Shown piece after piece: positions 1-54,225 of a DNA stretch of 64,000 nt. Numbering within the stretch: the stretch's first letter is position 1; each line of letters begins with the position of its first letter. Location: sequence record NC_050154.1. One strand, 5' to 3'. The notes under the pieces were generated by a model, which saw only the letters and a list, made by a program, of their open reading frames with translations, was not told the DNA's origin and made no database searches. The DNA is from Escherichia phage D6. A program made the position numbers and the translations under genes.

Positions 1-98
1 CAATTATTTAAAGTTATAAAATGCCGATTTTTTTTAATCCATCATAGATTGATGATGACCAGTAACACGTTGCCTTCATGGTCTTTAATTAGCGAAGT

Positions 99-127
99 GT
101 GGTTTCTACGGTTGGTTTTCTAAAATT
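99..127 (+). promoter_or_regulatory. Tandem operator-like motifs (tggtttctacgg, ggttttctaaaatt) about 100 bp upstream of the 227..1264 gene
   Basis: Shares the core TTTTCTAAC seen at 4630, 9075, 10323, 11366, 21267 and 54208; position matches the autoregulatory operators upstream of P1 c1. Confidence 0.4.
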
Positions 128-197
128 GATGACAAAAAATCACAGTTCGATCCTTTACTCACTCTGTTATTCGACATAAATTTGTCATAGTAATTTT

Positions 198-210
198 ATG
201 TTAGAAAACT
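198..210 (-). promoter_or_regulatory. Inverted copy of the operator-like motif (plus strand atgttagaaaact) 17 bp before the ATG at 227
   Basis: Reverse complement agttttctaacat matches the dispersed core; sits over the expected promoter/RBS region. Confidence 0.4.
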
Positions 211-226
211 AAATCGAGTAGGAATA

Positions 227-1264
227 ATGAGTAAGAAGTCGATCGAGAAAGAGTACAAACGGTTCCTGCAAACCGCTGAACGGTGGAAAGAGCTGGTGGT
301 CGCAAACTCTGTTTTCCATGATACCAGTTATGCTGGCGAGGAATTCCGCCATGTTGCATTAACGCATGACCAAAACATATTAGAAGAAGCTGAAAAATGT
401 CTTGCTGAATGGAAAGCCTTCGTTGACATGTGCCGCGATGCCGACGGCAAAGCGTCGAACATTGTTGAGTCTGTATATTCTCCGATCCCATTCATCATTG
501 AGGACACCAATCAAAGCACGCATGTCGTTGTGCAAAGCGCTACAACAACACGTACATTTACACGTGAACAATTGCTAAAAAAATACGACAAAATCATAAA
601 GAAAAGCCTGAAAAATAGGGTTTTTTCTCAAATCGTAGGTGCTCTTGAAGAAGAACAGCGCTTCTTTGAAGCTGAGCCTGAAGGCGAGATCTACCGGGCG
701 CGTAAAGAGGCATATACAGATGTTGTGCTGACAACAAACATCGAAGGCAGCAATGCCCTTTCTCGCTTTAGAGTTGGCGCACATGGCGCATTGGTTTTCG
801 CAAGACTACCGAAGACAACGATCCCCGTTGTCAATAATGTTGGTGAACGCCGGAGCATTACAATTTATTCTGGCGTCGAATCGGTACCTTGCAGCCTTCT
901 CGGCGATTTTAACTTATATCGTGTTCGTGACCTGGAAAAACACCAGCCAAGCTACGTTGCGAAGTCGTACATCTTAAGGAACATCGATATTCGCAATGAA
1001 AGCCTTAAGCAGAAATCCGCTAAGATGCTGGAGGATGCCGATCCGGCTATTCGCCATATCATTGAGCGTAAGATACGTACATCACGTGAAGCAATGGCAA
1101 GGCTGGATAAAATGGATCTGGAATTGTTAGACGTAATGATGGCCTCTGGAGACGACCTGACCGGCATTAAACTGAATGAAGCTCGTAAAAAATACGGCAA
1201 AGCAATCGAAGAACGTTACGGATACACATTCCCCCAAACGCAGTACGCCGCGAAGCTCTGGTAA
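227..1264 (+). CDS. Hypothetical 345-aa protein; candidate immunity repressor (c1-position analogue), function unproven
   Basis: ATG start; convergent with pacB as c1 is in P1; two operator-like motifs immediately upstream; no domain recognisable by eye. Confidence 0.4.
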   Translation: MSKKSIEKEYKRFLQTAERWKELVVANSVFHDTSYAGEEFRHVALTHDQNILEEAEKCLAEWKAFVDMCRDADGKASNIVESVYSPIPFIIEDTNQSTHVVVQSATTTRTFTREQLLKKYDKIIKKSLKNRVFSQIVGALEEEQRFFEAEPEGEIYRARKEAYTDVVLTTNIEGSNALSRFRVGAHGALVFARLPKTTIPVVNNVGERRSITIYSGVESVPCSLLGDFNLYRVRDLEKHQPSYVAKSYILRNIDIRNESLKQKSAKMLEDADPAIRHIIERKIRTSREAMARLDKMDLELLDVMMASGDDLTGIKLNEARKKYGKAIEERYGYTFPQTQYAAKLW

Positions 1265-1271
1265 TCACAAC

Positions 1272-1291
1272 CGGCCCCGCATCGCGGGGCT
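1272..1291. terminator. Bidirectional hairpin terminator between the convergent 227..1264 gene and pacB
   Basis: ccccgc-atc-gcgggg stem-loop followed by T-rich tract. Confidence 0.5.
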
Positions 1292-2800
1292 TTATATATC
1301 CAGATCCGGCATTTCGATATCCGCCAGAACCTGATCTCGGAAAGTTGCCATTTCGGCACCAATATCTTCATTAGCAGGCACATAGTCCACCAGCATAGTG
1401 AAGCAGTAGGTATCCCATCGGTCAGGCGATTTGATGTTTAGCTTTTGCCGCATGTGCTCTTTGCGCATCATCGCCATTTTCCCTTCTTCATTCAGTAAAA
1501 AGGGGATTTTTGACGCTTGCTCTGCCGTTTTAGGGTCACTGTCTATCCGCATACGCCCTGACTTTATGGCATCACGCGCCATAATATTTGCGTAGGCACG
1601 CTGATTAACAAATCGCTCCCTGTCTTTGTTCGCAAACATGGGTTTTCCCCACCGAATACGTACCGGGTTCGCACCACGACGCACCAACTGCGCACACGTA
1701 TCAGAACCAAAACCATCAGCATCAACCGCGATTGTTATATTCGGGTATTTTTCCGGCGTACATTCGTTATATATGAAGTCAGCAAAGGCCAATGGGTCCA
1801 TAGTGCCAGACATCTCCATTACCTTAAAGTTAACAACGCGCCGCTTATCCCTGTGACCTGATACCTTGCAGATGTTGAGGACCGACTTATCTCGCCCATT
1901 ACCAACGTCAGCCGTTGCCACCCATCCCCAGTTTTTCTCCAACAACACCTTGCGGCGAGCAGCGCGATCGCATTCATCACGACCAAGCAAATAGCCGTTA
2001 ATTTCTCGTGGGAACTGACCAAGCACCTTGACCATGTACTCAATAGAATCGCGCCCGCCATATTCCAGAAGCTTCTGCTTGATGAATTGTGGTGTGACGA
2101 ACGGTGATTCTTCCGAGTTAAGAACAATTGCTGTCCAGATCCCTTTCGGGTTGTCTGGGGTTTTTGCTTGAGAATGGTGCGAATCGTAGAAATAACCACT
2201 TGGCCTTGTTGGCTGGGATAGCATCAACATCCGGTTATCTTCTTCAGTAAGAGCACCGGTCATTACGCCGATCGCCTTATCAGATATACCAGATGCTTCA
2301 TCCAGAATTAGAAGCAAATGTGCCGCGTGTTCCCCCGCCAGCGCTTCTTCGTTGCCGAGTCGATAACCTTTGCAGAGAACTTCCCAAATCCCCTTACGGG
2401 AGCGCTCATAAAACATGGTGTCAGAGAGGACAAAATAGGTCTGCAACCACCCATGACGCTTAACTGCATTCGCCCAATACTGTTTAACGTATTTGAATAC
2501 GCCTGTTTTTACCTGGCCTATCTTGTTAGCAACAATGATGACACGGGCATCGGGGAACAGGATCATGAAAATCAACAGCAACATCGCGGTAAGGGACGAC
2601 TTCCCCGTTCCGTGTCCGGACGTGACGGTCGTCCTACTCCCCGTTTCCTGCACGGACTGAATGATCTGCTGCTGCTGGTGGGAGGGGAACATCCCAAAAA
2701 TATCGACAACAGCTTGGGTAAAGTTGTAGCGGTATTTGATTACCATATCGCGCCAGCGTGGATCGCTGGTGACGCATTTAATCTTGCGCCCTCCAGCCAT
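1292..2800 (-). CDS. pacB: Terminase large subunit (PacB-like)
   Basis: 502 aa; Walker A GHGTGKS; start ATG overlaps the upstream gene stop (TAATG); P1 PacB-like size. Confidence 0.85.
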   Translation of the reverse strand: MAGGRKIKCVTSDPRWRDMVIKYRYNFTQAVVDIFGMFPSHQQQQIIQSVQETGSRTTVTSGHGTGKSSLTAMLLLIFMILFPDARVIIVANKIGQVKTGVFKYVKQYWANAVKRHGWLQTYFVLSDTMFYERSRKGIWEVLCKGYRLGNEEALAGEHAAHLLLILDEASGISDKAIGVMTGALTEEDNRMLMLSQPTRPSGYFYDSHHSQAKTPDNPKGIWTAIVLNSEESPFVTPQFIKQKLLEYGGRDSIEYMVKVLGQFPREINGYLLGRDECDRAARRKVLLEKNWGWVATADVGNGRDKSVLNICKVSGHRDKRRVVNFKVMEMSGTMDPLAFADFIYNECTPEKYPNITIAVDADGFGSDTCAQLVRRGANPVRIRWGKPMFANKDRERFVNQRAYANIMARDAIKSGRMRIDSDPKTAEQASKIPFLLNEEGKMAMMRKEHMRQKLNIKSPDRWDTYCFTMLVDYVPANEDIGAEMATFRDQVLADIEMPDLDI

Positions 2801-4164
2801 TAATCATCCTCCGGCGGTTCTATCGCGATATCATCATCTCCGGCGTCATACCCTGCATCAGATGCATCATAATCACCGTAAATATCAGCCGTTGCCGAAG
2901 GGTCAATATCCAGCTCTTCGTCGTTGGCCTCGAATTCTCCAGCTTTACGCTCGCCATTGCGGTCGTAATCTCCGCACCCCAATTCTTCAACAATGGTTGC
3001 CACATCCGCCCGGCGCTCTGCCAGCCATTGCGGATGGTTAGCCTGAAGCGTCGCAAACTCCCTCGCCTCTTTGTCCAGCTGTTCATCATCAACATCATTG
3101 ACGTCAGAAACAGGTGGTTCGAGAAGAGTGATAGCTTTCGCCGCGCGCGCCGCGAGGATAGCCGGGACGCTGACCCCCTGGCGCTCGATGTATTCAGCAA
3201 CACCGATATCATCCAGTTCCTCGCGCTCACGCATACGTATAGCGGCGGCGATAACTCTGGCAGCGCGTGCGTCAGCGCCAATGCGATATTCAATCTCTTT
3301 GCCACGCTGTTCGGCCTGTAGGCGTGCTAATTCGAGTTTTTCTCTGGCCTCAGCCTCTTTGAATGCTTGCTGGCGAGCGCTCTGACGAAGCTTTTCATCC
3401 CCCTGTCGCAGCTTTTGTTCGGACTGATATATAGCTGCCAACCTACTGATAAAATCATTCATGTAGTAGGCCGCGTCACTGATTAGACCGAGAAGGCGCT
3501 GCCCAGGGTGCATTCCTTCTGGCTCTTTATCGCCCAAGGCGTCTATTTCCGCCTGTAGACGTTCGGCCTCCTGATCAACAATGCTTTGATACTGAAGTGC
3601 GCGCTCTTGCGCCATTTGAATTGCTAACCGCAGGTGTTCTTCTGCGCCGTTCTTCATCATATCGCGAGCCACATTCGTAGTGGGCAATGTGGCACGCTGC
3701 ACAGCACCGCCAGGGATCATTGCTGAAGATCCCTCAATTTTTGGGGCGCTTTTATCTTCTTCGGGGATCATTTTCGCCATTTTTTCGCGCAATGATCTCC
3801 TGACAGATTCTTTTATCTCATTGTTATTATTGGTATTACTTTCATGATCCGAAGTTTTCTTTCTTGGCATACTTCGGAAAGAACCTGCACCCTGCGAATT
3901 GTCAATTTCTGTAAATTTTGTTTTTTCTGCACCCTCTTCCAGCTTTTTTGTTGCTCTTCCCGCCCGTTTTTTTTCAGGTGATTTGGTGCTTTTTTTTGTT
4001 GTCTTTACCTGCGACCGCACCTCATTTTTTTTCATATTGAGATGCTTTCTGGCTGTATTGAAGCTAAGGCCATGCTCCTCACAGTATTCCTTTACAGTGA
4101 TCCCTTTTTCTTCACGCAACGCTATAAAGCGGGCGCGGTGCTCCTCCCAATTAACCAGACTCAT
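2800..4164 (-). CDS. pacA: Terminase small / pac-recognition subunit (PacA-like)
   Basis: 454 aa; N-terminal HTH-like segment (KEYCEEHGLSFNTARKHL); acidic C-terminus; translationally coupled to pacB. Confidence 0.55.
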   Translation of the reverse strand: MSLVNWEEHRARFIALREEKGITVKEYCEEHGLSFNTARKHLNMKKNEVRSQVKTTKKSTKSPEKKRAGRATKKLEEGAEKTKFTEIDNSQGAGSFRSMPRKKTSDHESNTNNNNEIKESVRRSLREKMAKMIPEEDKSAPKIEGSSAMIPGGAVQRATLPTTNVARDMMKNGAEEHLRLAIQMAQERALQYQSIVDQEAERLQAEIDALGDKEPEGMHPGQRLLGLISDAAYYMNDFISRLAAIYQSEQKLRQGDEKLRQSARQQAFKEAEAREKLELARLQAEQRGKEIEYRIGADARAARVIAAAIRMREREELDDIGVAEYIERQGVSVPAILAARAAKAITLLEPPVSDVNDVDDEQLDKEAREFATLQANHPQWLAERRADVATIVEELGCGDYDRNGERKAGEFEANDEELDIDPSATADIYGDYDASDAGYDAGDDDIAIEPPEDD

Positions 4165-4553
4165 AAAGCAACACCACGCTTTTTAACGGCGGCATTCCAC
4201 AGCTTATTCGCCATGTCCACCAGCTCTCGTTGCTCTTTTCGCGCCTGTTCGACTGATTTCCTGCTACAGTTTTTAACCAGTAAGCTACCGTATTCAGGCG
4301 TGCGCCCGCGCACCTTGAACTGATATCCGTTCAGACCATGTAGCCAGTATTTTCGTGGATACACACGATCATCCAGCTCACAGATTGCCCTGCTTGAACG
4401 AACAAAATGACGAATGATGTTAGTTACACTTACTCGTGAAACATGGAGATGAGGGTATTTTTCTTTGGCGAGAGTGGTAATTTCAGTGACTGTCAGATAG
4501 CAGTCAGCCCTGATCATGATATCCGCAATTTCTGCGCTGCTGATTTGTTCCAT
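4161..4553 (-). CDS. Hypothetical protein in the late-promoter-activator position (Lpa-like?)
   Basis: 130 aa; overlaps pacA start (ATGA); operator-like motif 77 bp upstream, as for C1-controlled lpa in P1. Confidence 0.3.
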   Translation of the reverse strand: MEQISSAEIADIMIRADCYLTVTEITTLAKEKYPHLHVSRVSVTNIIRHFVRSSRAICELDDRVYPRKYWLHGLNGYQFKVRGRTPEYGSLLVKNCSRKSVEQARKEQRELVDMANKLWNAAVKKRGVAL

Positions 4554-4629: not shown

Positions 4630-4643
4630 TGTATTAGAAAATT
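4630..4643 (-). promoter_or_regulatory. Operator-like motif (plus strand tgtattagaaaatt) upstream of the 4161..4553 gene
   Basis: Read in the gene's direction it is aattttctaataca; ~30-bp block closely resembles the reverse complement of the site at 54208. Confidence 0.45.
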
Positions 4644-4661
4644 AATATTAAATACCTAATG

Positions 4662-6083: not shown

Positions 6084-6159
6084 TGGTGGCCCCTACCTGA
6101 CTTGAACCGGTGACCGTGCGATTATGAGTCGCCAGCTCTAACCACTGAGCTAAGGGGCC
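6084..6159 (-). tRNA. tRNA with anticodon CAT (Met or lysidine-Ile2)
   Basis: Hand-folded cloverleaf: acceptor GGCCCCT/AGGGGCC, D-arm GCTC..GAGC, anticodon loop CTCATAA, T-loop TTCAAGT, encoded CCA; one mismatch each in anticodon and T stems. Confidence 0.55.
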
Positions 6160-6168
6160 AATTAGTTT

Positions 6169-7695: not shown

Positions 7696-7696
7696 C

Positions 7697-7772: not shown

Positions 7773-7774
7773 AT

Positions 7775-8713: not shown

Positions 8714-8941
8714 AAGATGTGCATTGATGATTAGATGCAGCATGTACCGTTACTCTCTGCCGGACCATCATCAATGAACACCTTAAAAAGACCTTCCGTG
8801 GCTCAACATGTATTGTCGTTTACTCCGCAAAGTGCTCTCTCTGAAACCACTTTCCGCACTAAACCTGCTGAACTTTGGCCTGCACGGTGCCAAAGCGTGC
8901 TCTTGCATTACTATACTTTTCTAACACTTTAATTTGTTAAA

Positions 8942-9015: not shown

Positions 9016-9074
9016 AGGAAAATTCTATGTTAAGTTACCTTCACAATCAATACATTCGAATTGTGATTTTAGAT

Positions 9075-9087
9075 TTCTAACACATTA
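9075..9087 (+). promoter_or_regulatory. Operator-like motif (tttctaacacatt) at the 3' end of the 407-aa gene, facing the ORF-free hairpin region
   Basis: Core matches the dispersed motif; preceded by gtgatttta as at the 54208 site. Confidence 0.4.
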
Positions 9088-10308
9088 TTTCCCGTAAAGA
9101 TCTTCTACACCCCCATTATTCTTATCCCATTCGTTCGCCCATACCCGGCAAGCGTCAATGATTTCCTGACGACGATCTCCTTGCATGAACGGAATGCTTT
9201 CATGGAAACAGCTTGGAATGCAGGCCACACTGAATACAGTATCAAACTCCGTCTGCTTGATTGCCTCCAGCGTCTCCGGACGCATTTTTAATTCATCGAT
9301 TGGCGCATCCTTAGAGTCCATAATCCGGCGATATAAGCACGGAAAATCCGTCTCCAGGTACGCCATAATTTTATCTGCGAGACATTCGTCTATGTCGGTA
9401 TTCCAGTCCTTTTCGAAGCCCGGCAGGCGATAGTAAAGCGGCGTTCCCCATACCGATGGGATCACATCCATCGTTAACAGGCGATTGGTTCTGATTTGTT
9501 GATGGTAATTAGCCGTCAGCAGTGCTTCGCCACGCTGCCCAGTTTCCGCAACCAGGCCGTGCGGATACTCATGGATGTAGGCAATGGCATCCCGCCCATC
9601 ATACATAAGTGGAAATGTCTCTGGTCTTTGTCCCATGCCACAAGCACGGTTCAGATCGTGACCAAGCTGTGAGCACTCTCGCTTTAATGTTTCGATAATG
9701 CTCTGCGCTGTAGCCAACTTTTTACGCAGTGTGACGCCTTCGCCTTGATAATCAATGCATTGCTGATTGAGCTTGGTTAAACGCTCTTTTAGTTCCCGGC
9801 GCTCTCTTTTCAGCGTGCGGTTATCCTTCTCCGCAACATCCAGCCGCTTTGTCAGGCTTGGCGGATAGTCTTTTTTGTAACGGTTCAAATCGGCTTCGGC
9901 AGATTTACGCAGTGTATTTGCCTGTTCAAGACGCGCTTCCAGATTGCCGATCTCATTACGCATATTCGCGGCAAATTGATTAACTGCATCACCCAGGCTT
10001 TCAACTGTCGCTGATACGCCTGTGACTTGTGAAAAACGGATCAAGCCATCATTAACGGCTTGTTGGTATTCCTCAAACTGATCCACCAGCTTATTGTAAT
10101 CAACTGCCCCATCATCAAGCAGCTTGTTGATTTCCGCCACCAGGTTATCTGTAGTGGCAATGACACTCTCGTGCAGTCGCTTTGACAGGTCATCACCAGG
10201 ATTCCGTTTCTGTATAAGAGCGATTTGTGTGCGCAGCGTTTCAATTGCTGTCGAGATAATTTCCAGATTAGAAGTATCAGTGTGTTGACTCATTGCTGTT
10301 CCCGTCAC
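9085..10308 (-). CDS. Hypothetical coiled-coil protein with a C-terminal globular domain carrying an HExxH motif
   Basis: 407 aa; N-terminal ~200 aa heptad-rich; HEYPH in AIAYIHEYPHGLVAE; several conserved-looking Cys; operator-like motif ~15 bp upstream of the start. Confidence 0.4.
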   Translation of the reverse strand: MTGTAMSQHTDTSNLEIISTAIETLRTQIALIQKRNPGDDLSKRLHESVIATTDNLVAEINKLLDDGAVDYNKLVDQFEEYQQAVNDGLIRFSQVTGVSATVESLGDAVNQFAANMRNEIGNLEARLEQANTLRKSAEADLNRYKKDYPPSLTKRLDVAEKDNRTLKRERRELKERLTKLNQQCIDYQGEGVTLRKKLATAQSIIETLKRECSQLGHDLNRACGMGQRPETFPLMYDGRDAIAYIHEYPHGLVAETGQRGEALLTANYHQQIRTNRLLTMDVIPSVWGTPLYYRLPGFEKDWNTDIDECLADKIMAYLETDFPCLYRRIMDSKDAPIDELKMRPETLEAIKQTEFDTVFSVACIPSCFHESIPFMQGDRRQEIIDACRVWANEWDKNNGGVEDLYGK

Positions 10309-10322
10309 TTTGTTAAATTAGT

Positions 10323-10335
10323 TTTCTAACATATT
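10323..10335 (+). promoter_or_regulatory. Operator-like motif (ttttctaacatat) immediately upstream of the 407-aa gene start
   Basis: Core match; lies between the upstream terminator and the start codon. Confidence 0.45.
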
Positions 10336-10917: not shown

Positions 10918-11412
10918 TTAATCAAGACAAACATACTCCGTGATAGCTTTTATGGCTTCAGCGGCACTGCGCGCCTCAAAGCAGTAGTAACCGGCTTCTG
11001 TGAGGCGAGTCATCCAGACGAGTTGTTCGGGAGTCAGGCGATTTCTCCCATGTTTCATCTCAATGCGCATTCCGTGGTATCCCCCACAAGCAAGGTCTAT
11101 AGAAAGATCGGGATATCCCTTCTTTTGGCCCTCTGCCACCATTTTTATTGCCGTCCTTATGCCTCGCAGGCCACCGTTTGGAGTGGCGTGAGTATGCTCA
11201 TACACATAACGCATATTGCGATACATCCAGTCCAGGACGCGAACCTGCTCGTAATGCTCATGGTTCCTTTTGATTAGATCTGGGTTTTTCTCCAGTTCTC
11301 TAAGAGCTGCGGCATGTGGGGATGTTTCAGAATATTCACTGCGACGCCTTCTCTTTCGCGCTATTTTTCTAACACACCCATTGATAGTAAATATGCGAAA
11401 TAATAACAACAA
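10918..11412 (-). CDS. VRR-NUC domain nuclease-like protein (start codon uncertain)
   Basis: GYPDL ... LACGGYHGMRIEMK signature; an operator-like motif sits inside the annotated 5' end, so the true start is probably downstream. Confidence 0.55.
   Translation of the reverse strand: MLLLFRIFTINGCVRKIARKRRRRSEYSETSPHAAALRELEKNPDLIKRNHEHYEQVRVLDWMYRNMRYVYEHTHATPNGGLRGIRTAIKMVAEGQKKGYPDLSIDLACGGYHGMRIEMKHGRNRLTPEQLVWMTRLTEAGYYCFEARSAAEAIKAITEYVCLD
11366..11377 (+). promoter_or_regulatory. Operator-like motif (ttttctaacaca)
   Basis: Exact core match; upstream of the VRR-NUC coding core. Confidence 0.4.
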
Positions 11413-11548: not shown

Positions 11549-11809
11549 TTAAAGGGTTATTTTATCCTGTTCGGATAATTCTTTGATTGTCTTGTCGATT
11601 GCGATCAACCAACCTTCATAGGTTAAATCATCAACAAGTTCTACCAACTTATCATCGGTGTGAGGAAAGTATATCCAGCTCCAGTTCGCAGGGTTTTCTG
11701 CTTTTCGCAGCGTAAAAACCTTCTTGTATCGGTGGAACTCAAGGATATACCCCTTCGATATGGAATATTCCTTTAGGTCTTCGACCGTAAACCTACGATT
11801 CTTTCGCAT
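11549..11809 (-). CDS. Hypothetical protein
   Basis: 86-aa ORF downstream of darB in the same orientation. Confidence 0.35.
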   Translation of the reverse strand: MRKNRRFTVEDLKEYSISKGYILEFHRYKKVFTLRKAENPANWSWIYFPHTDDKLVELVDDLTYEGWLIAIDKTIKELSEQDKITL

Positions 11810-12282: not shown

Positions 12283-15200
12283 TTAGGCCGCATCGGCGAT
12301 TATTTTACGCAGTTCATCTACCGAGTAACGCGTAGATACCATCCATGCAGGACGGTCAAAGTTCACATCAGCAACCGGGTTTGCTTCAAAATTCCAGAAA
12401 CGCCCGCCAATCTTCTTAATCGCGTCTTTGGCGTTCCGTATTGTCGAGGAACCTGGTTGGTCGGCAATGAGATAAACCGCGCCAACGTCCTCGCTGACGC
12501 TCCACCAGCGCCCGCGAACACGCGCCTTAGCGCGAATCGGCTTATCATTAACCACAATGATATAGTCATCATTCGCCGCTTCATCAGCTCTGGCTTCAGC
12601 CACTGCCGCCTGCTCTTCTCTTTTGCTTTCAGCCTGCTCAAGCCTTTCCGCGATCTCTGATTCAGTGGCCCCGCCGTTTTTCAGCGATACATAGTCCTGC
12701 CACGTTGACGATTTGAGCGTATCCGGCAACTCATTCACATAGTCGCCGTCTTTCAACTCACGGGCGCGGCGGGTAGCCATTTCGACCAGGCGATTAACAG
12801 AAACAGCATCAGCAAAATCGTCCTTACTAATGTGTTTTTCATCAAATGCATTGATGACAGCCCCCACCTTAATCCACTGTGCTGCCGGTGATTCCAGGGG
12901 GTTATCAGCCTGAACAATGGCGAGTTTCGCTCCATCTACCCCATTATTCGCCAGCTGTTCCAATGCCGTCCATCCATCTGCATCACTGAGTGATTTATAT
13001 TGCTCAAACAATGCATCGCGCCAGGCCACCAGCGCAGAACGTGTTTTTTCGATCTTCGCCTTAATTTTCGCGATCTTGACCTGATTAAACATCCGTTCAA
13101 TATCATCGATATTGCTAAAGGCTTTCATCCTGCCCTGGAATAAACGGTATGCCAGCACGGTCCTCCAGAATGATTCCAGACCTTCTCCGGACGGTTTGCG
13201 GAACAAGCTAAGAATATCTTCAGAAGTGACTTTATTAAGCGAACGACCTGACAGACCACGCCCAGCCATCCAGTTTTCGAACTCCTGGGTAACATCATCC
13301 ATCGTTGCCTGTGCGCCCCATGCCTGCATTCCCTGGGTGTAATCATACCCATACAATGCCTGGAGGAATCCCTCGCCGTCCACGATATTCAGCGGGTTAT
13401 CACTGGCTTGTATTTTTGCCACTTCACGCTTCAGCGCCTCGTCGTTGCCATCAGGATATATCCATCGCTCAGGTGCTATATCCGATGCTCGCCCGATTTT
13501 TTGGCCTATCACGCCATCATAGGCCGATGACAGCGCGATCTGACCATCATCTGTGCGATATGCCCAGTATTTAATAGCTGACCCACCGCCCCATGCATTA
13601 CCAGGTTTACCAGCAATAACATTCATTACCCCATTGCGAATAGCATCATAGAACTGATCGCGAGTAAGTATTGTTGATAGCTGGTGGCACTGAACACCAC
13701 GCGCAGCCGTTGCGCGCGATTCAGCTACCCCCTCTTCAAAAGTTACCGCTTCAATCACAGAGTCAAACGGCAATGTAACGATTGCCCCCGGTGCTCGAGC
13801 GTAACGACTTGCTCTATCCAGCCAGGCGATACGGCAGAGGTATTGTGCTTTTTCACCGTCAATTTTTTCCACCCGGACAATCGCTGTTGTTTCGCGATCA
13901 TCAATGACTGCACGGTAATAACTACCTTTATGCAACAGGATATTCTTGTCAGTGCGCATATATTCCTGTGGGTTCTGAATAACATCGATACTGATATCCA
14001 GCACACCAGACTTAATAGCGCGCTCCACATCACCACGAGAGCGTTTCATTATGGTATCCGCGTCTTTTGCCCTGGTGATCGCAAACCGCAGCACCCGCGC
14101 ACGTTTTCTGTAGCTACTCAACTGCTCAAGCGCGTATTTTTGCCCATTCCTGTTCGTACCCGCTTTTATCAGGTCGTCAAGATTTCGCTGGTAATACTCT
14201 ATCTGTTCCATCGCGCTTTTCAGTTCTGTCTCCATCATGCCGATATCTTTTCCGGCGGCGTTTGCCGCTTTCAGGTAGATATCGAGAGCATTGTTGGCCT
14301 CGCGCTGTGCTTTCAGTTTCAGACGTTCTTCACGCTCTTGCGCCTGGCGAGCCATGATTGCGCGGCGTTCTTCCGGGTTTGCCGCCAGCATAATGGCGCG
14401 TTCATCAGCATCATCCGCATCACCATTGGCGATCTCTGACATGTCGGAGGTCATCACCATCTTGATCCAGTCTTTCTTACGTTTAAGCGTATCCAGACGG
14501 AAGTCATCGAATGTGCCTTTGCCACAATAGTAGTGAACATTGACCTTTTCTTGCGGTGAACCTACGCGCGCACCGCGCCCATTTCGTTGGTCGATACTGG
14601 CTGGTGTCCAGGGTAGTGTCAGGTGGTGGATATCGGTTGTCCCGATGTGCAGGTTAATACCTACTTCAGCCTTCTTGTTACAGATTATGATGCGCGTGCG
14701 ACCTTCGTTATAGTCGGCGGCAATACCTTCCATGCCCTCAAGGCCAGCATCATTTTTAGCGGAGAGATAATCCTCATATTGGGCAAGTTTGCTGTAGTAG
14801 GTTTCCCATGCCCCTTCTTTGTATTCACCGTTTTTGTTTGGAGTAGGTTCGGTCGGCTTATTCACCTTCTTCAGTTTGATGCCACCAGCCTGGCTAACTG
14901 TCGTCGCATTGATAATGCCAATCTCCTGCTCCGGCATTTGCAGTGCACTGGCGATAATACGGCGCAGCTTCTGGTGCTGGGCTTTTTCATCAATAAAGAC
15001 GATCTGCTTACCGTTCTTCAGACCTTCACGAAGATTTTCGATCAGCGCGGCATACTTCGGCGGGATGGGGTGCGATACCTGCTGCATATCAATGCCGGCA
15101 GCCGCAATGGCCTTCAGTATTTCAGCTTCCAGTTCAATGCTGGCACGTATTTCAACATGCGTCGGATGTTCACTAAAAGCGGTCTTCACTACCTTGCTGG

Positions 15201-18200
15201 TACGCGTACTGACCAGCCCGCCAGCGCCGTCTTCCTCGGCCTCATCAACATCATCTGCCACTTTACCGCCAGCTACTTTTGGCAAGGCATCAGCAATAGC
15301 TTTTACCTGGTCTGCAAGCTCAACGGGGAACTGGAATGTAATCGCACTGGCATACAGATCCGGGTCTATAGCAACCTTATCCATGTCACGGATGATGGAG
15401 AAGATGAAATCATCCGGTTTGTCGTTAGTGATATGCCCGTTTTCATCGACTGTCAGCTCATCATTGCGACTTAACTCCTGAGCACGCTTACGAAGCTCTT
15501 CATAAGCAGTCTCCTGCTCCCCTGTCATCGGGATCTGCAAGGTGTTCTCGATGATGTCGGGAATTTTAACCGTCGCTCCGACATCTGCAGCAGTCTTCAG
15601 AGTGGCCCAACGATGGAAAATACCACGCAGGCCGTCAAGGTTCTGGAAGCCCACCAGCCCCTGCTTCTCTTCCACTTCCCCGGAAATTTTCTGGACCTGA
15701 ACTGTGGCTGTTTTGCCAAACACACGAACGAAATCATCAGGCGTAATGATGCCCATACGCATCCACTCTTCCTGCGGAATGACAGTAGACAGCATGTTGA
15801 AGGCATCAATCGGACTGTTCACCAGCGGTGTTGCCGTCAGCATGACTACACCACGCCCGTTGTTGCGTTTCATCATGTACGCAGCTTTTACAGCCATGTC
15901 GCGGGCCATCTTGGATACTGCCGGGTTAGGCAAATATGCCAGTTGTCCCGCTTCACGCCCGGCATTAAAGGAGTTGCGGTAGTTATGCCCCTCGTCGGCA
16001 ATCACGCTATCGAAGTTCATATCCTCAAAGTACGGGATATTTTGCTTCTTCGTTGTACCGGTATTCGCGGCCTGATCCTTAATCTTGTTCTTCTTCTGCG
16101 CATCACGGTGTTTACCGGACGCCAGGTCAAGACGCCCCATTTCCACAGCATTAAAGACAGCTTGCTGTGAGTTCTCCTCGATGGTTTTTTCTCGTAGCGG
16201 GATAGACGCGAATTGTTCTTTTGTCATGATGACCGTTCGCCAATTTGACGACGGGATCATGTTCATACGCTGAACGATAACGGCGCTGGAGGACTCTTTC
16301 ACAACATTTCTGGTAAGAGGCTGCCCGTTACTGTCGAGGCGTGGTTCGCCATTTTCATCAAGCACCGGCGCGGTCAGAATATTTCCGCTGTCATCACGAA
16401 CTTCATCCAAACCGATAAACATCATATTGGCGAAGGCATCAGCACTGTAGAAACTCTGTGCCTCGTGATACCAGTTCTGATAAACCGCCTTCGGAACAAC
16501 AATACACGTGCGTTTAGTGCGACCTGTTTCGAAGTTATACGCCTCAAGCGCAAGCGCGGTCGTGGTTTTACCCAGCCCGGTACCAAATCCCATGATGCCA
16601 CGCCCATCTTCTGACAAGCGCCGAACTTCTTCATTCTGATAAGTCAGAGGAATGCGCTTTCCACTAATCCCTTCCAGGCCAAGCGGTGCGTCAGAATGTG
16701 TGAACGGAATGAAACCATTGAATGCGTCGTTATAGTCACGGGCTATCTGATCCGCCTGCGGGTGGGTGCGTAACCAGTCGTTAAAGCTAACTTCCAGTTG
16801 AGCAATTTTATCCAGGTACTCGTTAGCGTTCTGCCCACGCGGTTTAACACCGTTCAGGTAGTTTTCTAACTGGTTCAGGAAGCCGTCTTTATTGTTGGCC
16901 TTCTTGAACTCATTCCCGTTTTTGCCGTTTACGGTTCGTAGCTGATAGCCGGTAAATACCCCGTCCTTACCTTCGTAATCGTCCGGAGATACCAGAATGC
17001 CATCGACGACCTTCAGATCAGGTTCAGTGTACTTAAACTCGTCATAGCCCTGCTCTGCCAAGAACTCTTTTATCAAGCGGCGATCCAGCCAGCGGGCATT
17101 CAGATTAACGGTGACTTTATTTAGTGGCGTGAAAATGCGTTTCTCTTCGATTTTCGCCAACTGACGCTCAAAGTTCGCTTTCTGCTCACCTGTTGACGCA
17201 TCACGCCAGCCCACCAGCAGTGCTGTTTTGGTTGCAACATCGCCGCTGGTGGCGCGGTCCATCGGCAGCAGACAGCCATACCCATCAATAGCGATATCAT
17301 CAAATTTCGCCAGGTATTCAAGGACCGCGTCGTCGTCCTCTGGCAGTTCACCAGCAAACGCCTCACGAAAGTCGCCCAGCGTTATAGGATTAAGGGCTAC
17401 ATCACTAAAAAGATGTGCTATCACTTGTTCAGGACGTGTAAAGTCAATACCGGCAGCACCATCCGTTACATCAAGTCGCCCTGCCAGAAGGTCAGAAGTG
17501 GAACCATCCTGTTTCACATTGCCAGTGAACGTCATCCAGTTTTTAGCGCCAGCTTCAGCAAGCCCATTCAGCTTAATGGCGTGCGGTGGTCCATACTTCG
17601 CAACTTCTGCTGCCGCCAGGCGGGATGCATCTGCCAGTTTGTCATCAACGTTCACACCCAGGTTACGCAAATCAAGTGCCTTGTTGATCAACTGACCTAT
17701 CAGCGCACCGCGCATAACGCGCTCCCTGTCTTTTTCTCGCTGCTTGCCAGCAAAGCGAATCATTGCTGCCACTTCATCACTGACAACCGATGGATAGTCG
17801 GACGCGATCGCCGATATCTGGTCCCATGACAAAGCCAGAATCCCGTTTGTTGACTGGAACGCGATCTGCAGATCGCCAAACGTCGAAACACCATATCGAC
17901 TTACATCAAGCGCGGAGGATTTGGTTGTCGTGTCCTTAACCCATTTCAGACCATCAAACTCATGCCAGATACCGCCTACAAGGCGTTTATCGCCCACTTT
18001 CGCGCCCTGCCATGCCTGAGTAGTTACGCCGAGCAAATCCCAATTGATGCGACTATCAAAGCGACGAGATAGCGCGGTTTTCATCGACTCATTGGATACA
18101 CGACCGTCTTTTTTCACCACCAGGGTATTGCGGAAGCTGGTACGTTCCATGTCGCCGTAAACAAATCGCTTCCCTTCGGTTGTAAACCATTTTCCTTTGA

Positions 18201-19119
18201 GGAAGGTATCCCAAAGGACGTTTGCCGATTTGAGTGTTGAATCATCCGTGTCGGGGATCATCTCCAGGAAGGTTTCCGGGTGTTTACGCAATACCCATAC
18301 GTCCACCACGGTATCTGTACCGGATTCGCTGAACGTACCAGAAGGCATACGATGTGCGCCCAAAAATTCCGCTTTACGGCTGACTTTATCGCGCAATTTT
18401 TTATATTTCGCACCATCGGTCATGCCATTCGGCACCACCAATACGATAAGCCCACCAGGCTTAACCTTGTCGATCGTGCGCAGCACAAAGTAATTGCCAA
18501 CGTTCTTCTCGTTTGCATATGCCGGATCAAGACCGGCGACACCGGAACGCCCTTCACCAAACGGTACGTTACCAACAGCGTGATCATACATTGCGTCTTT
18601 CGCCGCCAGCGCCTCAAACGCCCCGATATTCACATCGTCTTCCGGGTGCAAAAGCTGGTTTATTCGACCGGAAATCGGAGACAGTTCGGCGCTGGTCATT
18701 ATCATGCCCTGCCGTTTTGTCTCCTGGAAAATACCTGTGCCCGCTGATGGTTCCAGTACGTGCCCGCCATCAATACCGTAGTCAGCAAACAGATCCCATA
18801 TACCTTCAGCCATAAACTGTGGCGTGTAGTATTCGTATTGGCTGCCCTCACCATCTGTCAGGCCGCCTTCACCGGTATACCCGGCAAGAATCTGACGTTG
18901 TTCGTCAGTTAATTTCGCCCCATCGAAGCCGGGCGGAAGGGAATTAAGAAGATTTACTGCGGCATTATTTGCTGCCCGGCGTGTTTTCTGAATACTGACG
19001 CCATCGGCTTTCCTGACGCCAAAGGTCGCAACAGCACGTAATTTATGCAACCGACTAACAATTTCAATCAGTTCGCCTAAGCTGGAGGCTTCACTGATTG
19101 AATGAAGTAGTTTGTCCAA
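12283..19119 (-). CDS. darB: DarB-like antirestriction protein (N-terminal adenine-methyltransferase domain plus superfamily-2 helicase)
   Basis: 2278 aa; MTase-like NVPFG and SAM-binding region; helicase motifs GFGTGLGKTT and DEGH; TTG start with strong RBS (GAGGGGG); size matches P1 DarB (~2255 aa). Confidence 0.8.
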   Translation of the reverse strand: MDKLLHSISEASSLGELIEIVSRLHKLRAVATFGVRKADGVSIQKTRRAANNAAVNLLNSLPPGFDGAKLTDEQRQILAGYTGEGGLTDGEGSQYEYYTPQFMAEGIWDLFADYGIDGGHVLEPSAGTGIFQETKRQGMIMTSAELSPISGRINQLLHPEDDVNIGAFEALAAKDAMYDHAVGNVPFGEGRSGVAGLDPAYANEKNVGNYFVLRTIDKVKPGGLIVLVVPNGMTDGAKYKKLRDKVSRKAEFLGAHRMPSGTFSESGTDTVVDVWVLRKHPETFLEMIPDTDDSTLKSANVLWDTFLKGKWFTTEGKRFVYGDMERTSFRNTLVVKKDGRVSNESMKTALSRRFDSRINWDLLGVTTQAWQGAKVGDKRLVGGIWHEFDGLKWVKDTTTKSSALDVSRYGVSTFGDLQIAFQSTNGILALSWDQISAIASDYPSVVSDEVAAMIRFAGKQREKDRERVMRGALIGQLINKALDLRNLGVNVDDKLADASRLAAAEVAKYGPPHAIKLNGLAEAGAKNWMTFTGNVKQDGSTSDLLAGRLDVTDGAAGIDFTRPEQVIAHLFSDVALNPITLGDFREAFAGELPEDDDAVLEYLAKFDDIAIDGYGCLLPMDRATSGDVATKTALLVGWRDASTGEQKANFERQLAKIEEKRIFTPLNKVTVNLNARWLDRRLIKEFLAEQGYDEFKYTEPDLKVVDGILVSPDDYEGKDGVFTGYQLRTVNGKNGNEFKKANNKDGFLNQLENYLNGVKPRGQNANEYLDKIAQLEVSFNDWLRTHPQADQIARDYNDAFNGFIPFTHSDAPLGLEGISGKRIPLTYQNEEVRRLSEDGRGIMGFGTGLGKTTTALALEAYNFETGRTKRTCIVVPKAVYQNWYHEAQSFYSADAFANMMFIGLDEVRDDSGNILTAPVLDENGEPRLDSNGQPLTRNVVKESSSAVIVQRMNMIPSSNWRTVIMTKEQFASIPLREKTIEENSQQAVFNAVEMGRLDLASGKHRDAQKKNKIKDQAANTGTTKKQNIPYFEDMNFDSVIADEGHNYRNSFNAGREAGQLAYLPNPAVSKMARDMAVKAAYMMKRNNGRGVVMLTATPLVNSPIDAFNMLSTVIPQEEWMRMGIITPDDFVRVFGKTATVQVQKISGEVEEKQGLVGFQNLDGLRGIFHRWATLKTAADVGATVKIPDIIENTLQIPMTGEQETAYEELRKRAQELSRNDELTVDENGHITNDKPDDFIFSIIRDMDKVAIDPDLYASAITFQFPVELADQVKAIADALPKVAGGKVADDVDEAEEDGAGGLVSTRTSKVVKTAFSEHPTHVEIRASIELEAEILKAIAAAGIDMQQVSHPIPPKYAALIENLREGLKNGKQIVFIDEKAQHQKLRRIIASALQMPEQEIGIINATTVSQAGGIKLKKVNKPTEPTPNKNGEYKEGAWETYYSKLAQYEDYLSAKNDAGLEGMEGIAADYNEGRTRIIICNKKAEVGINLHIGTTDIHHLTLPWTPASIDQRNGRGARVGSPQEKVNVHYYCGKGTFDDFRLDTLKRKKDWIKMVMTSDMSEIANGDADDADERAIMLAANPEERRAIMARQAQEREERLKLKAQREANNALDIYLKAANAAGKDIGMMETELKSAMEQIEYYQRNLDDLIKAGTNRNGQKYALEQLSSYRKRARVLRFAITRAKDADTIMKRSRGDVERAIKSGVLDISIDVIQNPQEYMRTDKNILLHKGSYYRAVIDDRETTAIVRVEKIDGEKAQYLCRIAWLDRASRYARAPGAIVTLPFDSVIEAVTFEEGVAESRATAARGVQCHQLSTILTRDQFYDAIRNGVMNVIAGKPGNAWGGGSAIKYWAYRTDDGQIALSSAYDGVIGQKIGRASDIAPERWIYPDGNDEALKREVAKIQASDNPLNIVDGEGFLQALYGYDYTQGMQAWGAQATMDDVTQEFENWMAGRGLSGRSLNKVTSEDILSLFRKPSGEGLESFWRTVLAYRLFQGRMKAFSNIDDIERMFNQVKIAKIKAKIEKTRSALVAWRDALFEQYKSLSDADGWTALEQLANNGVDGAKLAIVQADNPLESPAAQWIKVGAVINAFDEKHISKDDFADAVSVNRLVEMATRRARELKDGDYVNELPDTLKSSTWQDYVSLKNGGATESEIAERLEQAESKREEQAAVAEARADEAANDDYIIVVNDKPIRAKARVRGRWWSVSEDVGAVYLIADQPGSSTIRNAKDAIKKIGGRFWNFEANPVADVNFDRPAWMVSTRYSVDELRKIIADAA

Positions 19120-19788: not shown

Positions 19789-19989
19789 TCAAGTCACGAT
19801 CCAATCATTACCGACTATATCAGCCGTCGATAAATCAACTTCCCGGATCTGGAGTCCATTAATACAAAACCATCCGGTAGTAGAGTAATTATCAGGCCAG
19901 GCCCATACACCAACACTCCATGCTTTACGGCGGCACACTTCAGCCTGTCCTTCCCTGATTTTTTTTACCGCCTGCATGATGTCCATCAC
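19789..19989 (-). CDS. Hypothetical small protein
   Basis: 66-aa ORF, start overlaps stop of the upstream gene. Confidence 0.3.
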   Translation of the reverse strand: MMDIMQAVKKIREGQAEVCRRKAWSVGVWAWPDNYSTTGWFCINGLQIREVDLSTADIVGNDWIVT

Positions 19990-20693
19990 TCACCTCCCCA
20001 ACCGATCACCTGGAATTGCCCCATTTTGGGGTGATACCAGCGTTTTCCTCGGTGTTCAGCCTCCGACATCATCCGGTTAAAAGCATTCATGAAGGGAGAT
20101 AAGGCCACGATGGAACGACGCGACAATACCCCCTCTGGAGTTAAAAACTCATGCGTATCGGTGGGAATCCGGTAAGCGTTGACCAAGTTGCGACATTTGG
20201 CTTCGGTCAGGCCACATTTCGCCGCCAGCTGGCGGTAGCCAATGTAGCCTTCCGGCATATTGCCCTTCTTGATTTGCTCGACGGTTTCAGCGACCTGGCT
20301 AACCTTTGACTCAACAGCATGAAGCCGCTTTTGCTGCTGAACTGCATTTGCAGCCATTGCGGCGATCATCTCTATTTCGGTCAACGGCTGGCGTACTTGT
20401 TCTTCCAGTTCGCGCCAGCGGTCCACCAGCCGGGCGGTAAATTCGGGAGAAAGCTGCGCAACGACAATGATACTGTCACGCTTGCCTTGCTCGCCTTCGA
20501 AGACGTAGTGTGAATTTTTAACTTTAAATCCTAAGTTATTGATATTTTCGGAAACCTCCATTGGAGGAAGTGGAATAACACCTGATTTACTCAAGCGTTC
20601 AATAGTGCGTTTAACGTTATCCGGGCGACTTCCCACCAGCTCCGCGATCTCAATGCTGGTCATTGATGGCTTTTCAAGAATGCAGATTTCCAT
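19986..20693 (-). CDS. Antirepressor-like protein (Rha/ORF6N-type N-terminal domain)
   Basis: 235 aa; SIEIAELVGSRPDNVKRTIERL resembles phage Rha/Ant N-termini; strong RBS GGAGG; sits where ant sits in the P1 c4-icd-ant operon. Confidence 0.45.
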   Translation of the reverse strand: MEICILEKPSMTSIEIAELVGSRPDNVKRTIERLSKSGVIPLPPMEVSENINNLGFKVKNSHYVFEGEQGKRDSIIVVAQLSPEFTARLVDRWRELEEQVRQPLTEIEMIAAMAANAVQQQKRLHAVESKVSQVAETVEQIKKGNMPEGYIGYRQLAAKCGLTEAKCRNLVNAYRIPTDTHEFLTPEGVLSRRSIVALSPFMNAFNRMMSEAEHRGKRWYHPKMGQFQVIGWGGE

Positions 20694-21015: not shown

Positions 21016-21266
21016 GGCCGAAGCCTCCCCATCACGCCCCACCATAATTCGGGCGTAACGTGGTTTTACGGACACAAAAATACCGCAATATCGGAAATGT
21101 GCGGTTGTCCGCGTAAGTATTCAGGCTGTCAAACCCGGTCGCAGAATTTGCTACGACGGCATGAATATAAGCCTGAAAACATGGAAGATCAACTAAAAAT
21201 TTCAGCAATGGATGACTTCAGTCGATGATGCAGATCATACATTCCGATTTAGAAACAGCAAATTAA

Positions 21267-21284
21267 TTTTCTAACACAAATCAT
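21267..21284 (+). promoter_or_regulatory. Operator-like motif (ttttctaacacaaatcat) upstream of the c4/icd/ant-like operon
   Basis: 18-bp identity with the site at 54208..54225. Confidence 0.5.
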
Positions 21285-45698: not shown

Positions 45699-45816
45699 GG
45701 TGTAAGATTTGCCCTCAATTAAATACGATCGGTGTAAGATTTGCCCTCAAAAGGTGTAAGATTTGCCCTCAAAAGGTGTAGTAATTGCCCTCAAAGTGAT
45801 GTAAAAATTGCCCTCA
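45699..45816 (+). repeat. Five direct ~20-bp iterons upstream of repA (origin / incC-like)
   Basis: ggtgtaagatttgccctcaa x3 then ggtgtagtaattgccctcaa and gatgtaaaaattgccctca, at ~22-bp spacing. Confidence 0.8.
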
Positions 45817-45840
45817 CCATTTGAAGGATCACACAGGGTT

Positions 45841-54074: not shown

Positions 54075-54207
54075 GGTTAAGCCCTAAATTCGGGCGCGGC
54101 GTGAAGGTTCTTTTGACGGGCTAACAATACCTACTTTGTGATTTAGTCAATAGGTTTAGTAAAATAAAATCTATTAACACTCATGTTGTTATGTGATTTA
54201 ATTTTGG

Positions 54208-54225
54208 TTTTCTAACACAAATCAT
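54208..54225 (+). promoter_or_regulatory. Operator-like motif (ttttctaacacaaatcat) 8 bp upstream of the 54233 start
   Basis: 18-bp identity with the site at 21267; preceded by gtgattta. Confidence 0.5.

What the first reader, a model, noticed from the sequence alone, without database searches (positions are those of the whole stretch)
227..1264. Repressor-position gene does not look like a simple P1 C1 copy
The gene sits convergent to pacB with operator-like repeats upstream, as c1 does in P1, but it is 345 aa (P1 C1 is ~283 aa as I recall) and no small coi-like ORF is visible between the operators and its start within the window. It may be a divergent immunity repressor.
Basis: inference. 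Interest (0 to 1): 0.45.

Follow-up and report, generated by a model that had tools for sequence, protein, structure and literature searches.

The report
Phage D6 C1 repressor, long form
This gene is the already-annotated master lysogeny repressor (C1) of the P1-like phage-plasmid D6, a distant and longer relative of P1's C1 that seems to use its own operator sequence and no Coi partner, and whose predicted fold unexpectedly resembles the replication-terminator protein Tus.

The parts
227..1264 (+). c1 gene of phage D6 (345 aa plus stop), a long-form C1-family lysogeny repressor
   Evidence: ORF. It is 100% identical to AY753669 CDS c1 / AAV84948.1. It matches phrog_1678 over its full length with E 2.8e-170. 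Its homologues carry PF27008.
227..949 (+). C1 core (residues 1-241), homologous to P1 C1 residues 8-246; a mixed alpha/beta predicted fold that matches Tus
923..1036 (+). Long helix (residues 233-270), variable in sequence; P1-type C1 has a counterpart helix at 238-266
   Evidence: AF2 secondary structure and per-region identity.
1037..1261 (+). C-terminal extension specific to long-form C1 (residues 271-345): a second long helix plus three short helices. It is absent from P1/P7 C1, which end in a disordered basic tail
   Evidence: Alignments A1 and A3. It is as conserved as the core among long forms. It shows no similarity to P1 Lxc. Models.
112..127 (+). Candidate distal C1 operator upstream of c1 (TTGGTTTTCTAAAATT)
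   Evidence: The same distal (+) / proximal (-) pair is found in relatives L004 and L005.
197..212 (-). Candidate proximal C1 operator (TTAGTTTTCTAACATA), 15 nt upstream of the c1 ATG; probable autoregulation site
   Evidence: the position is conserved in L004 and L005.
1..16 (.). Right half of the rox site for Dre recombinase; the window begins inside it
   Evidence: AY753669 annotates rox at locus 2705-2736, and window base 1 corresponds to locus base 2721.
1273..1291 (.). G+C-rich hairpin between the convergent c1 and pacB genes; likely a shared terminator
   Evidence: Terminator-like scan.
4630..4645 (-). Candidate operator 77 nt upstream of lpa (4161..4553 -), positionally like P1 Olpa
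   Evidence: lpa is identified by PF25716. P1 Olpa annotation. The same position is occupied in L004.
21263..21278 (+). Candidate operator about 95 nt upstream of the c4 a1b1 targets, C4 RNA and ant operon; positionally like the C1 operator upstream of c4 in P1 (Op51 by my recollection)
   Evidence: Rfam places C4 at 20964-21049 (-) and a1b1 at 21118-21170 (-). The Ant-like gene 19986..20693 (-) matches phrog_63 with E 3.7e-48.
10318..10333 (+). Candidate operator 10 nt upstream of the pmgS-like gene (9085..10308 -)
9069..9084 (+). Candidate operator just downstream of the pmgS-like gene
   Evidence: L004 has sites flanking its orthologue.
8913..8928 (+). Candidate operator (3 mismatches, perfect core)
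11361..11376 (+). Candidate operator at the 5' end of ORF 10918..11412 (-), a VRR-NUC/resolvase-like gene
54204..54219 (+). Candidate operator 14 nt upstream of gene 54233..54625 (+)

Best explanation
The ORF is the c1 gene of the P1-like phage-plasmid D6, its primary lysogeny (immunity) repressor and a long-form member of the P1/P7 C1 family. The homology, the gene position and the statistical reality of the motif are shown here. It is inferred that the protein binds a dispersed set of asymmetric sites of about 16 bp (consensus TTAGTTTTCTAACACA, core TCTAAC) in either orientation. By this reading it represses its own promoter through an inverted pair 85 bp apart, the proximal site lying 15 nt before the ATG. 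It would also repress lpa (the late-gene activator), the c4-ant immunity operon and several other early promoters, which would hold the plasmid prophage silent. The operator sequence differs completely from P1's ATTGCTCTAATAAATTT, so D6 should be heteroimmune to P1 and P7. The circuit lacks the Coi anti-repressor and a recognisable Lxc co-repressor, so release from repression probably runs through the C4-controlled Ant protein. DNA recognition is probably carried out by a Tus-like alpha/beta core, with invariant arginines (R41, R157, R159) on beta strands. The conserved C-terminal helical domain (residues 271-345), which P1 C1 lacks, is proposed to add a protein-protein function such as self-association or looping between the paired operators, or docking of a partner.
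For: Identity: window 1-1400 is 100% identical to D6 immC, where the ORF is annotated c1.
Homology to P1 C1 over the core. Both proteins share PF27008 and phrog_1678.
Synteny: the order recombinase <- -> c1 <- pacB <- pacA <- lpa is the same as in P1 and in relatives with 44-52% identical C1.
Motif discovery: an unbiased k-mer scan seeded in intergenic DNA returns this motif as the top dispersed motif; the only other comparably frequent motif is the clustered plasmid iterons.
Enrichment statistics.
Site positions: 8 of the 11 sites I count lie in the roughly 10% of DNA that is intergenic in my crude ORF calls, including upstream of c1 and lpa, which carry annotated C1 operators in P1, and upstream of c4, where I recall Op51 in P1.
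Conservation: the exact core is enriched and positionally conserved in relatives L004 (6 hits against 0.08 expected) and L005 (4 against 0.03), including the inverted pair before c1.
Co-variation: a 27%-identical relative (L007) has a different dispersed motif, CATCCTAACAA (9 hits against 0.34 expected), also just upstream of its c1. It keeps the CTAAC core but changes the flank, as expected if repressor and operator evolve together.
Site acts on DNA: motif orientation is inconsistent relative to the downstream genes, which argues for a DNA site rather than an RNA element.
P1 operators: the P1 consensus has no match in the 64 kb, while the same search recovers four annotated operators in 8.8 kb of P1. 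The D6 motif is absent from that P1 segment.
Missing partners: no Coi, ImcA/B or Lxc homologue was found. An Ant-like gene lies downstream of C4 RNA.
Fold.
C-terminal domain conservation.
Against: No binding, repression or immunity experiment can be run here. The link between motif and protein rests on position, enrichment and co-variation only.
The 16-mer consensus was derived from the same sites that were then counted, so one search is partly circular. Searches are not.
The distal c1 site (112-127) has 4 mismatches to the consensus.
No strong sigma-70 promoter was found overlapping the c1-proximal site by simple scans.
Coi, Imc and Lxc are tiny proteins, so tblastn could miss homologues as divergent as C1 itself. 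An 86-aa ORF sits where lxc would be.
The function of the C-terminal domain is pure inference.
Confidence: 0.8

Rival explanations
1. The protein is the C1-family repressor, but the TTAGTTTTCTAACACA motif is bound by some other factor (for example a host nucleoid protein or another phage regulator), and the real C1 operators are different sequences.
For: No binding data exist. The motif is A+T-rich and often lies 10-20 nt upstream of start codons, which could also suit another regulator. No clear -35/-10 overlap was found at several sites.
Against: It is the only dispersed motif recovered de novo apart from the clustered plasmid iterons. It occupies the three positions that define the P1 C1 regulon: c1, lpa and c4. 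It changes in step with C1 divergence in L007 while keeping a CTAAC core, which a host-factor site would not do.
Confidence: 0.12
2. The gene is not primarily an immunity repressor but a Tus-like site-specific DNA clamp with another role, for example blocking replication forks or helicases at specific plasmid or phage sites.
For: Among solved structures, only Tus gives significant fold matches to the D6 model. The candidate sites are asymmetric and occur in both orientations.
Against: The protein is homologous to P1 C1, an experimentally established transcriptional repressor (PMC8546580). The sites lie in promoter regions of regulatory genes, not around the replication origin or iterons at 45.5-46.9 kb. 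It has no sequence similarity to Tus or membership of its family. The operator shows no similarity to Ter above chance.
Confidence: 0.04
3. The gene is an ordinary P1-type c1 whose apparent extra length comes from a mis-chosen start codon or a read-through or frameshift at the 3' end.
For: None beyond the bare length difference of 345 against 283 aa.
Against: The N-termini of ten homologues align from residue 1, and the P1 alignment starts at residue 7/8 in both proteins. The extra residues are C-terminal, predicted with high confidence, and as conserved as the core in relatives down to about 30% identity. Identity to P1 C1 is only about 20%.
Confidence: 0.01

Closest known systems
C1 repressor of phages P1 and P7 (immC; NCBIfam NF041318, Pfam PF27008, phrog_1678)
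   Same: They share a homologous core of about 235 residues and the same Pfam and PHROG families. The gene sits in the same place, between the Cre/Dre recombinase site and pacB and convergent with pacB. Both have dispersed asymmetric operators of about 16-17 bp, including sites at c1 and lpa (annotated in P1) and upstream of c4 (Op51 in P1, by my recollection). Both operators contain a TCTAA core, although the overall similarity is not above chance.
   Different: Identity is only about 20%, far below the NCBIfam equivalog cutoff (25 bits against 500). The D6 protein is 62 aa longer because of a conserved C-terminal helical domain, where P1 C1 has a disordered basic tail. The operator sequence differs completely, with no cross-matches in either direction. 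There are no coi or imcA/B genes between the operators and c1, and no detectable lxc. c1 is preceded by two monovalent sites in inverted orientation rather than P1's bivalent Oc1ab plus Oc1c-e.
Tus, the replication terminus site-binding protein of E. coli (PDB 1ECR, 4XR0-2)
Lambda-type CI/Cro switches (HTH repressors, LexA-like autocleavage)
   Same: They fill the same biological role, maintaining lysogeny by repressing lytic promoters with autoregulation.
   Different: The D6 protein has no HTH or peptidase S24 domain. Its operators are asymmetric and dispersed over the genome rather than palindromic and clustered in one switch region. Induction presumably runs through an anti-repressor.

Membership tests
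P1/P7 C1 repressor family (PF27008 / phrog_1678) | Sequence homology to P1/P7 C1 | tested here: met
   BLASTP E 2e-8 over 240 aa. hhalign probability 97.2%, E 4.5e-11, D6 7-241 against P1 8-246. Both proteins match phrog_1678. PF27008 'Phage_P7_repressor_C1' is precomputed on both families.
P1/P7 C1 repressor family (NCBIfam equivalog NF041318 phage_rep_C1) | Score at or above the equivalog cutoff (500 bits), indicating the same protein with the same specificity | tested here: not met
   25.4 bits, E 8.9e-6, covering residues 7-240 only. P1 C1 itself scores 607.5 bits.
P1/P7 C1 repressor family | immC position: next to the recombinase/lox-type site and convergent with pacB | tested here: met
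   The order is dre - rox - c1 -> <- pacB <- pacA <- lpa, the same as in P1 and in relatives.
P1/P7 C1 repressor family | Many dispersed asymmetric operators, including sites at c1, lpa and the c4 operon | tested here: met
   A motif family with this distribution exists, is conserved in relatives and co-varies in L007. That C1 binds it is inferred, not shown.
P1/P7 C1 repressor family (P1/P7 immunity specificity) | Operators matching ATTGCTCTAATAAATTT | tested here: not met
   There are 0 matches with up to 3 mismatches in 64 kb. The same search finds 5 sites in 8.8 kb of P1, four of them annotated operators.
P1/P7 immC module | coi (and imcA/imcB) upstream of c1 in the same operon | tested here: not met
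   Downstream of rox there is no + strand ORF over 26 aa before c1; the only longer one (55 aa, 2458-2625) starts inside dre and ends before rox. tblastn finds no hit. No such gene is called in L004 or L005.
P1 tripartite immunity | Lxc co-repressor | tested here: inconclusive
   tblastn and BLASTP find no homologue. An 86-aa ORF (11549..11809 -) follows the ulx-like gene exactly where lxc lies in P1. The window covers only 64 kb of the genome.
P1 tripartite immunity | immI: C4 antisense RNA controlling an anti-repressor | tested here: met
   Rfam C4 scores 69.6 bits and its a1b1 targets 55.9 bits. An Ant-like gene lies downstream.
P1/P7 C1 repressor family | Repressor activity and superinfection immunity | not testable with these tools
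   This needs genetics or biochemistry.
Tus (Ter-binding protein, Pfam PF05472) | Sequence membership | tested here: not met
   No Pfam hit. hhalign of the C1 profile against E. coli Tus gives probability 0.7%. The PDB sequence search finds nothing.
Tus (Ter-binding protein) | Tus fold | tested here: inconclusive
Tus (Ter-binding protein) | Ter-like binding site and polar fork arrest | tested here: not met
   Operator-to-Ter similarity is at chance level, reached by 45% of shuffles. Fork arrest is not testable here.

The most novel reading that the evidence does not exclude
The whole P1/P7/D6 C1 repressor family, whose structure has never been solved, may be built on the Tus fold. On this reading C1 proteins are monomeric clamps that read asymmetric sites with inter-domain beta strands, and they share ancestry with the enterobacterial replication terminator Tus. 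Tus might then have been recruited from a phage-plasmid repressor, or the reverse. The 345-aa D6 form would keep a C-terminal helical domain that P1 lost, its role possibly replaced in trans by Lxc. Operator specificity, and so immunity, would be set by the bases flanking a conserved CTAA core (P1 GCTCTAAT, D6 TTTCTAAC, L007 ATCCTAAC).
Probability: 0.4. Interest if true: 0.65.

Novelty: already known. Interest (0 to 1): 0.3.

Why it matters
The flagged gene is not a discovery. It is the D6 c1 gene, deposited and named as such in GenBank record AY753669, and the D6-type protein occurs on about 150 sequenced phage-plasmids of roughly 90 kb in Escherichia, Salmonella and relatives.

Two results from this check could still be useful. 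The first is a concrete, testable operator consensus for the D6 immunity group, together with a map of its likely regulon: c1, lpa, c4-ant, the pmgS-like gene and others. This would explain heteroimmunity with P1 and P7 and could help in engineering orthogonal P1-like vectors alongside Dre/rox.

The second is a structural lead. It would give the long-studied P1 C1 repressor a fold and a DNA-binding mode, both Tus-like, and would link a phage-plasmid repressor family to the origin of the enterobacterial replication fork trap. I found no paper making that link. It rests on predicted models and is only partly reproduced with the P1-type sequence.

Tried and rejected
1. P1-type operators: none in the window.
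2. Coi, ImcA, ImcB and Lxc homologues: tblastn found only noise. The best hit was Lxc at E 0.023, inside the 2278-aa ORF 12283..19119 (-).
3. The idea that the D6 C-terminal extension is a fused Lxc: no alignment at all. The 86-aa ORF at the lxc position also has no similarity to Lxc.
4. Pfam on the 345-aa protein and on P1 C1: no hit, because PF27008 is newer than the local Pfam copy.
5. tblastn against the phage collection: returned only the D6 immC record, so it gave no view of diversity. The plasmid collection did give one.
6. Sequence search of the PDB with the single protein and with a profile: nothing.
7. hhalign of the C1 profile against the E. coli Tus sequence: not significant.
8. 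Apparent resemblance of the D6 operator to Ter (TATGTT..AACTAA) and to the P1 operator (shared TCTAA): not above shuffled controls, with 45% and 80% of shuffles scoring as well. Rejected as evidence.
10. Simple sigma-70 scans: no convincing c1 promoter.
11. The two primary D6 papers (Sauer & McDermott 2004, PMC534624; Gilcrease & Casjens 2018, PMC5800970) are not held. I could not check whether D6 operators have already been proposed there.
12. Small ORFs upstream of c1 in the distant relative L007: no similarity to Coi or Lxc.

Full report
**What is there**

The window carries an ATG-initiated ORF at 227..1264 (+) of 345 codons. An AGGA sequence lies at 220-223, just upstream. The ORF is convergent with a 502-aa ORF at 1292..2800 (-), which is a large-terminase/PacB homologue, followed by pacA and lpa homologues. 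A G+C-rich hairpin at 1273-1291 separates the two stop codons.

Window 1-1400 is 100% identical to GenBank AY753669, 'Enterobacteria phage D6 immC region'. In that record the ORF is annotated as c1, 'phage repressor protein; similar to the C1 repressor of phage P1'. The window begins in the middle of the rox site of the Dre recombinase. The object is therefore the published c1 gene of the P1-like phage-plasmid D6.

The D6-type protein is common. tblastn finds it on 149 PLSDB plasmids, mostly non-mobilizable replicons of about 90 kb from Escherichia, Salmonella, Citrobacter and Shigella.

**Checking the observation**

- P1 C1 is 283 aa, and this protein is 345 aa.
- The D6 record extends 2.7 kb upstream of the window, so the whole 394-bp dre-c1 spacer can be examined. 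Its + strand holds a 55-aa ORF (2458-2625) that starts inside dre and ends before rox, and two ORFs of 24 and 26 aa downstream of rox.
- tblastn with P1 Coi, ImcA, ImcB and Lxc gives only noise in the window and in the D6 record.
- Relatives whose C1 is 52% and 44% identical (L004, L005) have the same layout: recombinase <-, -> c1, <- pacB, <- pacA, <- lpa. No gene is called between the recombinase and c1 in either.

**Is it a C1?**

Yes, but a distant one.
- BLASTP aligns residues 7-237 with P1 C1 8-242 at 21% identity, E 2e-8.
- The NCBIfam equivalog model phage_rep_C1 gives 25 bits against a cutoff of 500, over residues 7-240.
- A profile-profile comparison of ten D6-type and eleven P1-type sequences gives 97.2% probability and E 4.5e-11 for D6 7-241 against P1 8-246.
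- Both proteins match phrog_1678. D6 covers profile positions 2-347 and P1 covers 1-280.
- Both families carry the precomputed Pfam family PF27008, 'Phage_P7_repressor_C1'. The local Pfam copy predates that family, which explains the empty Pfam scans.

The length difference is C-terminal and not a start-codon artefact. All homologues align from residue 1.

An exhaustive phmmer search of 1.84 billion representatives finds 59 relatives of two kinds. Long forms of 344-380 aa match out to about residue 340. Short forms of 250-290 aa match only residues 5-240.

Among long forms, the last 75 residues (271-345) are as conserved as the core. For example, three relatives show 51-59% identity there against 44-53% in the core. 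The helix at 233-270 is more variable.

**Operators**

The P1 consensus ATTGCTCTAATAAATTT (PMC8546580) has no match with up to 3 mismatches in the whole 64 kb. The same search recovers four annotated operators (Olpa, Oc1a, Oc1d, Oc1e) in 8.8 kb of P1.

I then ran an unbiased scan for k-mers seeded in intergenic DNA. It returned two motif families of comparable frequency. One is a cluster of iterons around a repA-like gene. The other is a dispersed motif with consensus TTAGTTTTCTAACACA.

Enrichment of the dispersed motif:

| Pattern | Hits in window | Expected | Shuffles reaching it |
|---|---|---|---|
| 15-mer, up to 2 mismatches | 8 | 2.6 | 0 of 100 |
| Exact 10-mer TTTTCTAACA | 6 | 0.21 | 0 of 100 |
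| 16-mer, up to 3 mismatches | 9 | 0.66 | 0 of 100 |

The last count is partly circular, because the consensus came from the same sites.

Site positions:
- An inverted pair upstream of c1, at 112-127 (+) and 197-212 (-). The proximal site lies 15 nt before the ATG.
- 4630-4645, 77 nt upstream of lpa.
- 21263-21278, about 95 nt upstream of the a1b1 targets, C4 RNA and Ant-like operon.
- 8913, 9069 and 10318, around the pmgS-like gene.
- 11361 and 11415, at the start of a nuclease-like gene.
- 54204, 14 nt before gene 54233.
- A weak site (4 mismatches) at 22465-22480, upstream of gene 21331..22293 (-).

One more site lies outside the window, upstream of orf2.

In P1, c1 and lpa carry annotated C1 operators (Oc1a-e and Olpa). 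The operator upstream of c4 (Op51) I cite from my own knowledge.

Motif orientation relative to the downstream gene is not constant, which argues for a DNA-level site.

The exact core is also strongly enriched in relatives. L004 has 6 hits against 0.08 expected and L005 has 4 against 0.03. Both keep the inverted pair before c1, and L004 keeps the lpa site.

In L007, whose C1 is only 27% identical, the dispersed motif seeded from the c1 upstream region is different: CATCCTAACAA, with 9 hits against 0.34 expected. One copy lies 31 nt before c1. The CTAAC core is kept and the flank changes, which is the pattern expected for a co-evolving repressor-operator pair.

The D6 motif is absent from the P1 immC segment.

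I conclude that these are very probably the D6 C1 operators and that D6 is heteroimmune to P1 and P7. Binding itself is inferred.

**Circuit differences from P1**

Coi and ImcA/B are absent. Lxc was not detected, in agreement with a statement in PMC6799933 citing the D6 genome paper. However, an 86-aa ORF (11549..11809 -) follows the ulx-like gene exactly where lxc follows ulx in P1. It has no sequence similarity to Lxc.

The immI module is present: C4 RNA, its targets and an Ant-like anti-repressor. Relief of repression therefore most likely runs through Ant. This step is inference.

**Structure**

An AlphaFold2 model of the D6 protein, built from a 21-sequence alignment, has mean pLDDT 89.6 and pTM 0.67. 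It shows a mixed alpha/beta core (1-232), two long helices (233-270 and 276-307) and three short helices (316-342).

Foldseek against the PDB gives exactly four significant hits, all Tus, with E 5e-8 to 2e-6, probability 1.00 and TM 0.34-0.45. The next hit has E 0.14.

There is no sequence-level link to Tus, and operator and Ter sequences are not significantly similar.

The family-invariant residues R41, R157, R159 and G187 lie on or immediately next to predicted beta strands. This fits a Tus-like beta-strand reading of DNA, and it fits the asymmetric operators of P1 C1. That P1 C1 binds as a monomer is from my own knowledge.

I found no paper containing both 'C1 repressor' and 'Tus' (also 80). 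This is a lead, not a finding.

**Verdict**

The gene and its divergence from P1 C1 are already on record for phage D6, so novelty is 'already known' and overall interest is modest.

Two additions from this check are worth recording. One is a specific candidate operator and regulon for the D6 immunity group. The other is the possible Tus-like architecture of the C1 family, together with a conserved C-terminal domain of unknown role in the long forms.

I could not read the two primary D6 papers, so the operator set may already have been proposed there.

Noticed in passing
window 11549-11809 (-): An 86-aa ORF (phrog_6844, unknown function) follows the 2278-aa ORF 12283..19119 (-) and a Ulx-like gene. 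This is exactly the position lxc holds after darB-ulx in P1, where Lxc is 82 aa. It has no sequence similarity to P1 Lxc. It may be a positional analogue of the co-repressor reported as missing from D6-like phages.
   Followed up: partly
window 19215-19226 (-), 25230, 31520, 38124, 45500, 54133 (+): A recurring 12-mer, AGTTTGTGATTT (AAATCACAAACT in the direction of the gene), lies 42-59 nt upstream of the start codons of several tail, lysis-type or unannotated genes. It does not resemble the P1 late-promoter -22 boxes (AAGTTACTT, ATGTGACTT). It may be the Lpa-dependent late-promoter element of D6.
   Followed up: partly
window 45560-46880: About a dozen copies of an iteron, GGGCAATTTTTACA, lie in two clusters flanking ORF 45808..46596 (262 aa). 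This looks like the plasmid-prophage replicon, a repA with incC/incA-like iterons.
   Followed up: no
window 20964-21049 (-) and 21118-21170 (-): Rfam finds C4 antisense RNA (69.6 bits) and its a1b1 target element (55.9 bits), followed by an Ant-like anti-repressor gene at 19986..20693 (-). This is an immI-type module.
   Followed up: partly
window 6084-7850 (-): A cluster of four tRNA genes: Met-CAT, Ser-TGA, Thr-TGT and Asn-GTT.
   Followed up: no
L001 1507-1522 (D6 immC record, outside the window): A further copy of the candidate operator (TTAAATTTCTAACACA) lies just downstream of dre and upstream of orf2-orf3-dut. L004 has a copy at the equivalent place (8420-8429).
   Followed up: partly
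L005 about 9725-9756; L004 about 9745-9776: The rox site is identical in L004. L005 has a variant palindrome-like site, taactttagataactcccattatctaaagtta, next to its Dre/Cre-like recombinase. It may be a heterospecific rox-like site.
   Followed up: no
L007 9270-9844 (+): In a distant relative (C1 27% identical), two small genes of 80 aa (acidic) and 111 aa (hydrophobic) precede c1 in the same orientation, where P1 has coi/imc. Neither shows similarity to Coi or Lxc.
   Followed up: partly
window 174-201: A 10-nt inverted repeat, ACATAAATTT / AATTTTATGT, lies immediately upstream of and overlaps the proximal c1 operator. Its significance is unknown.
   Followed up: no
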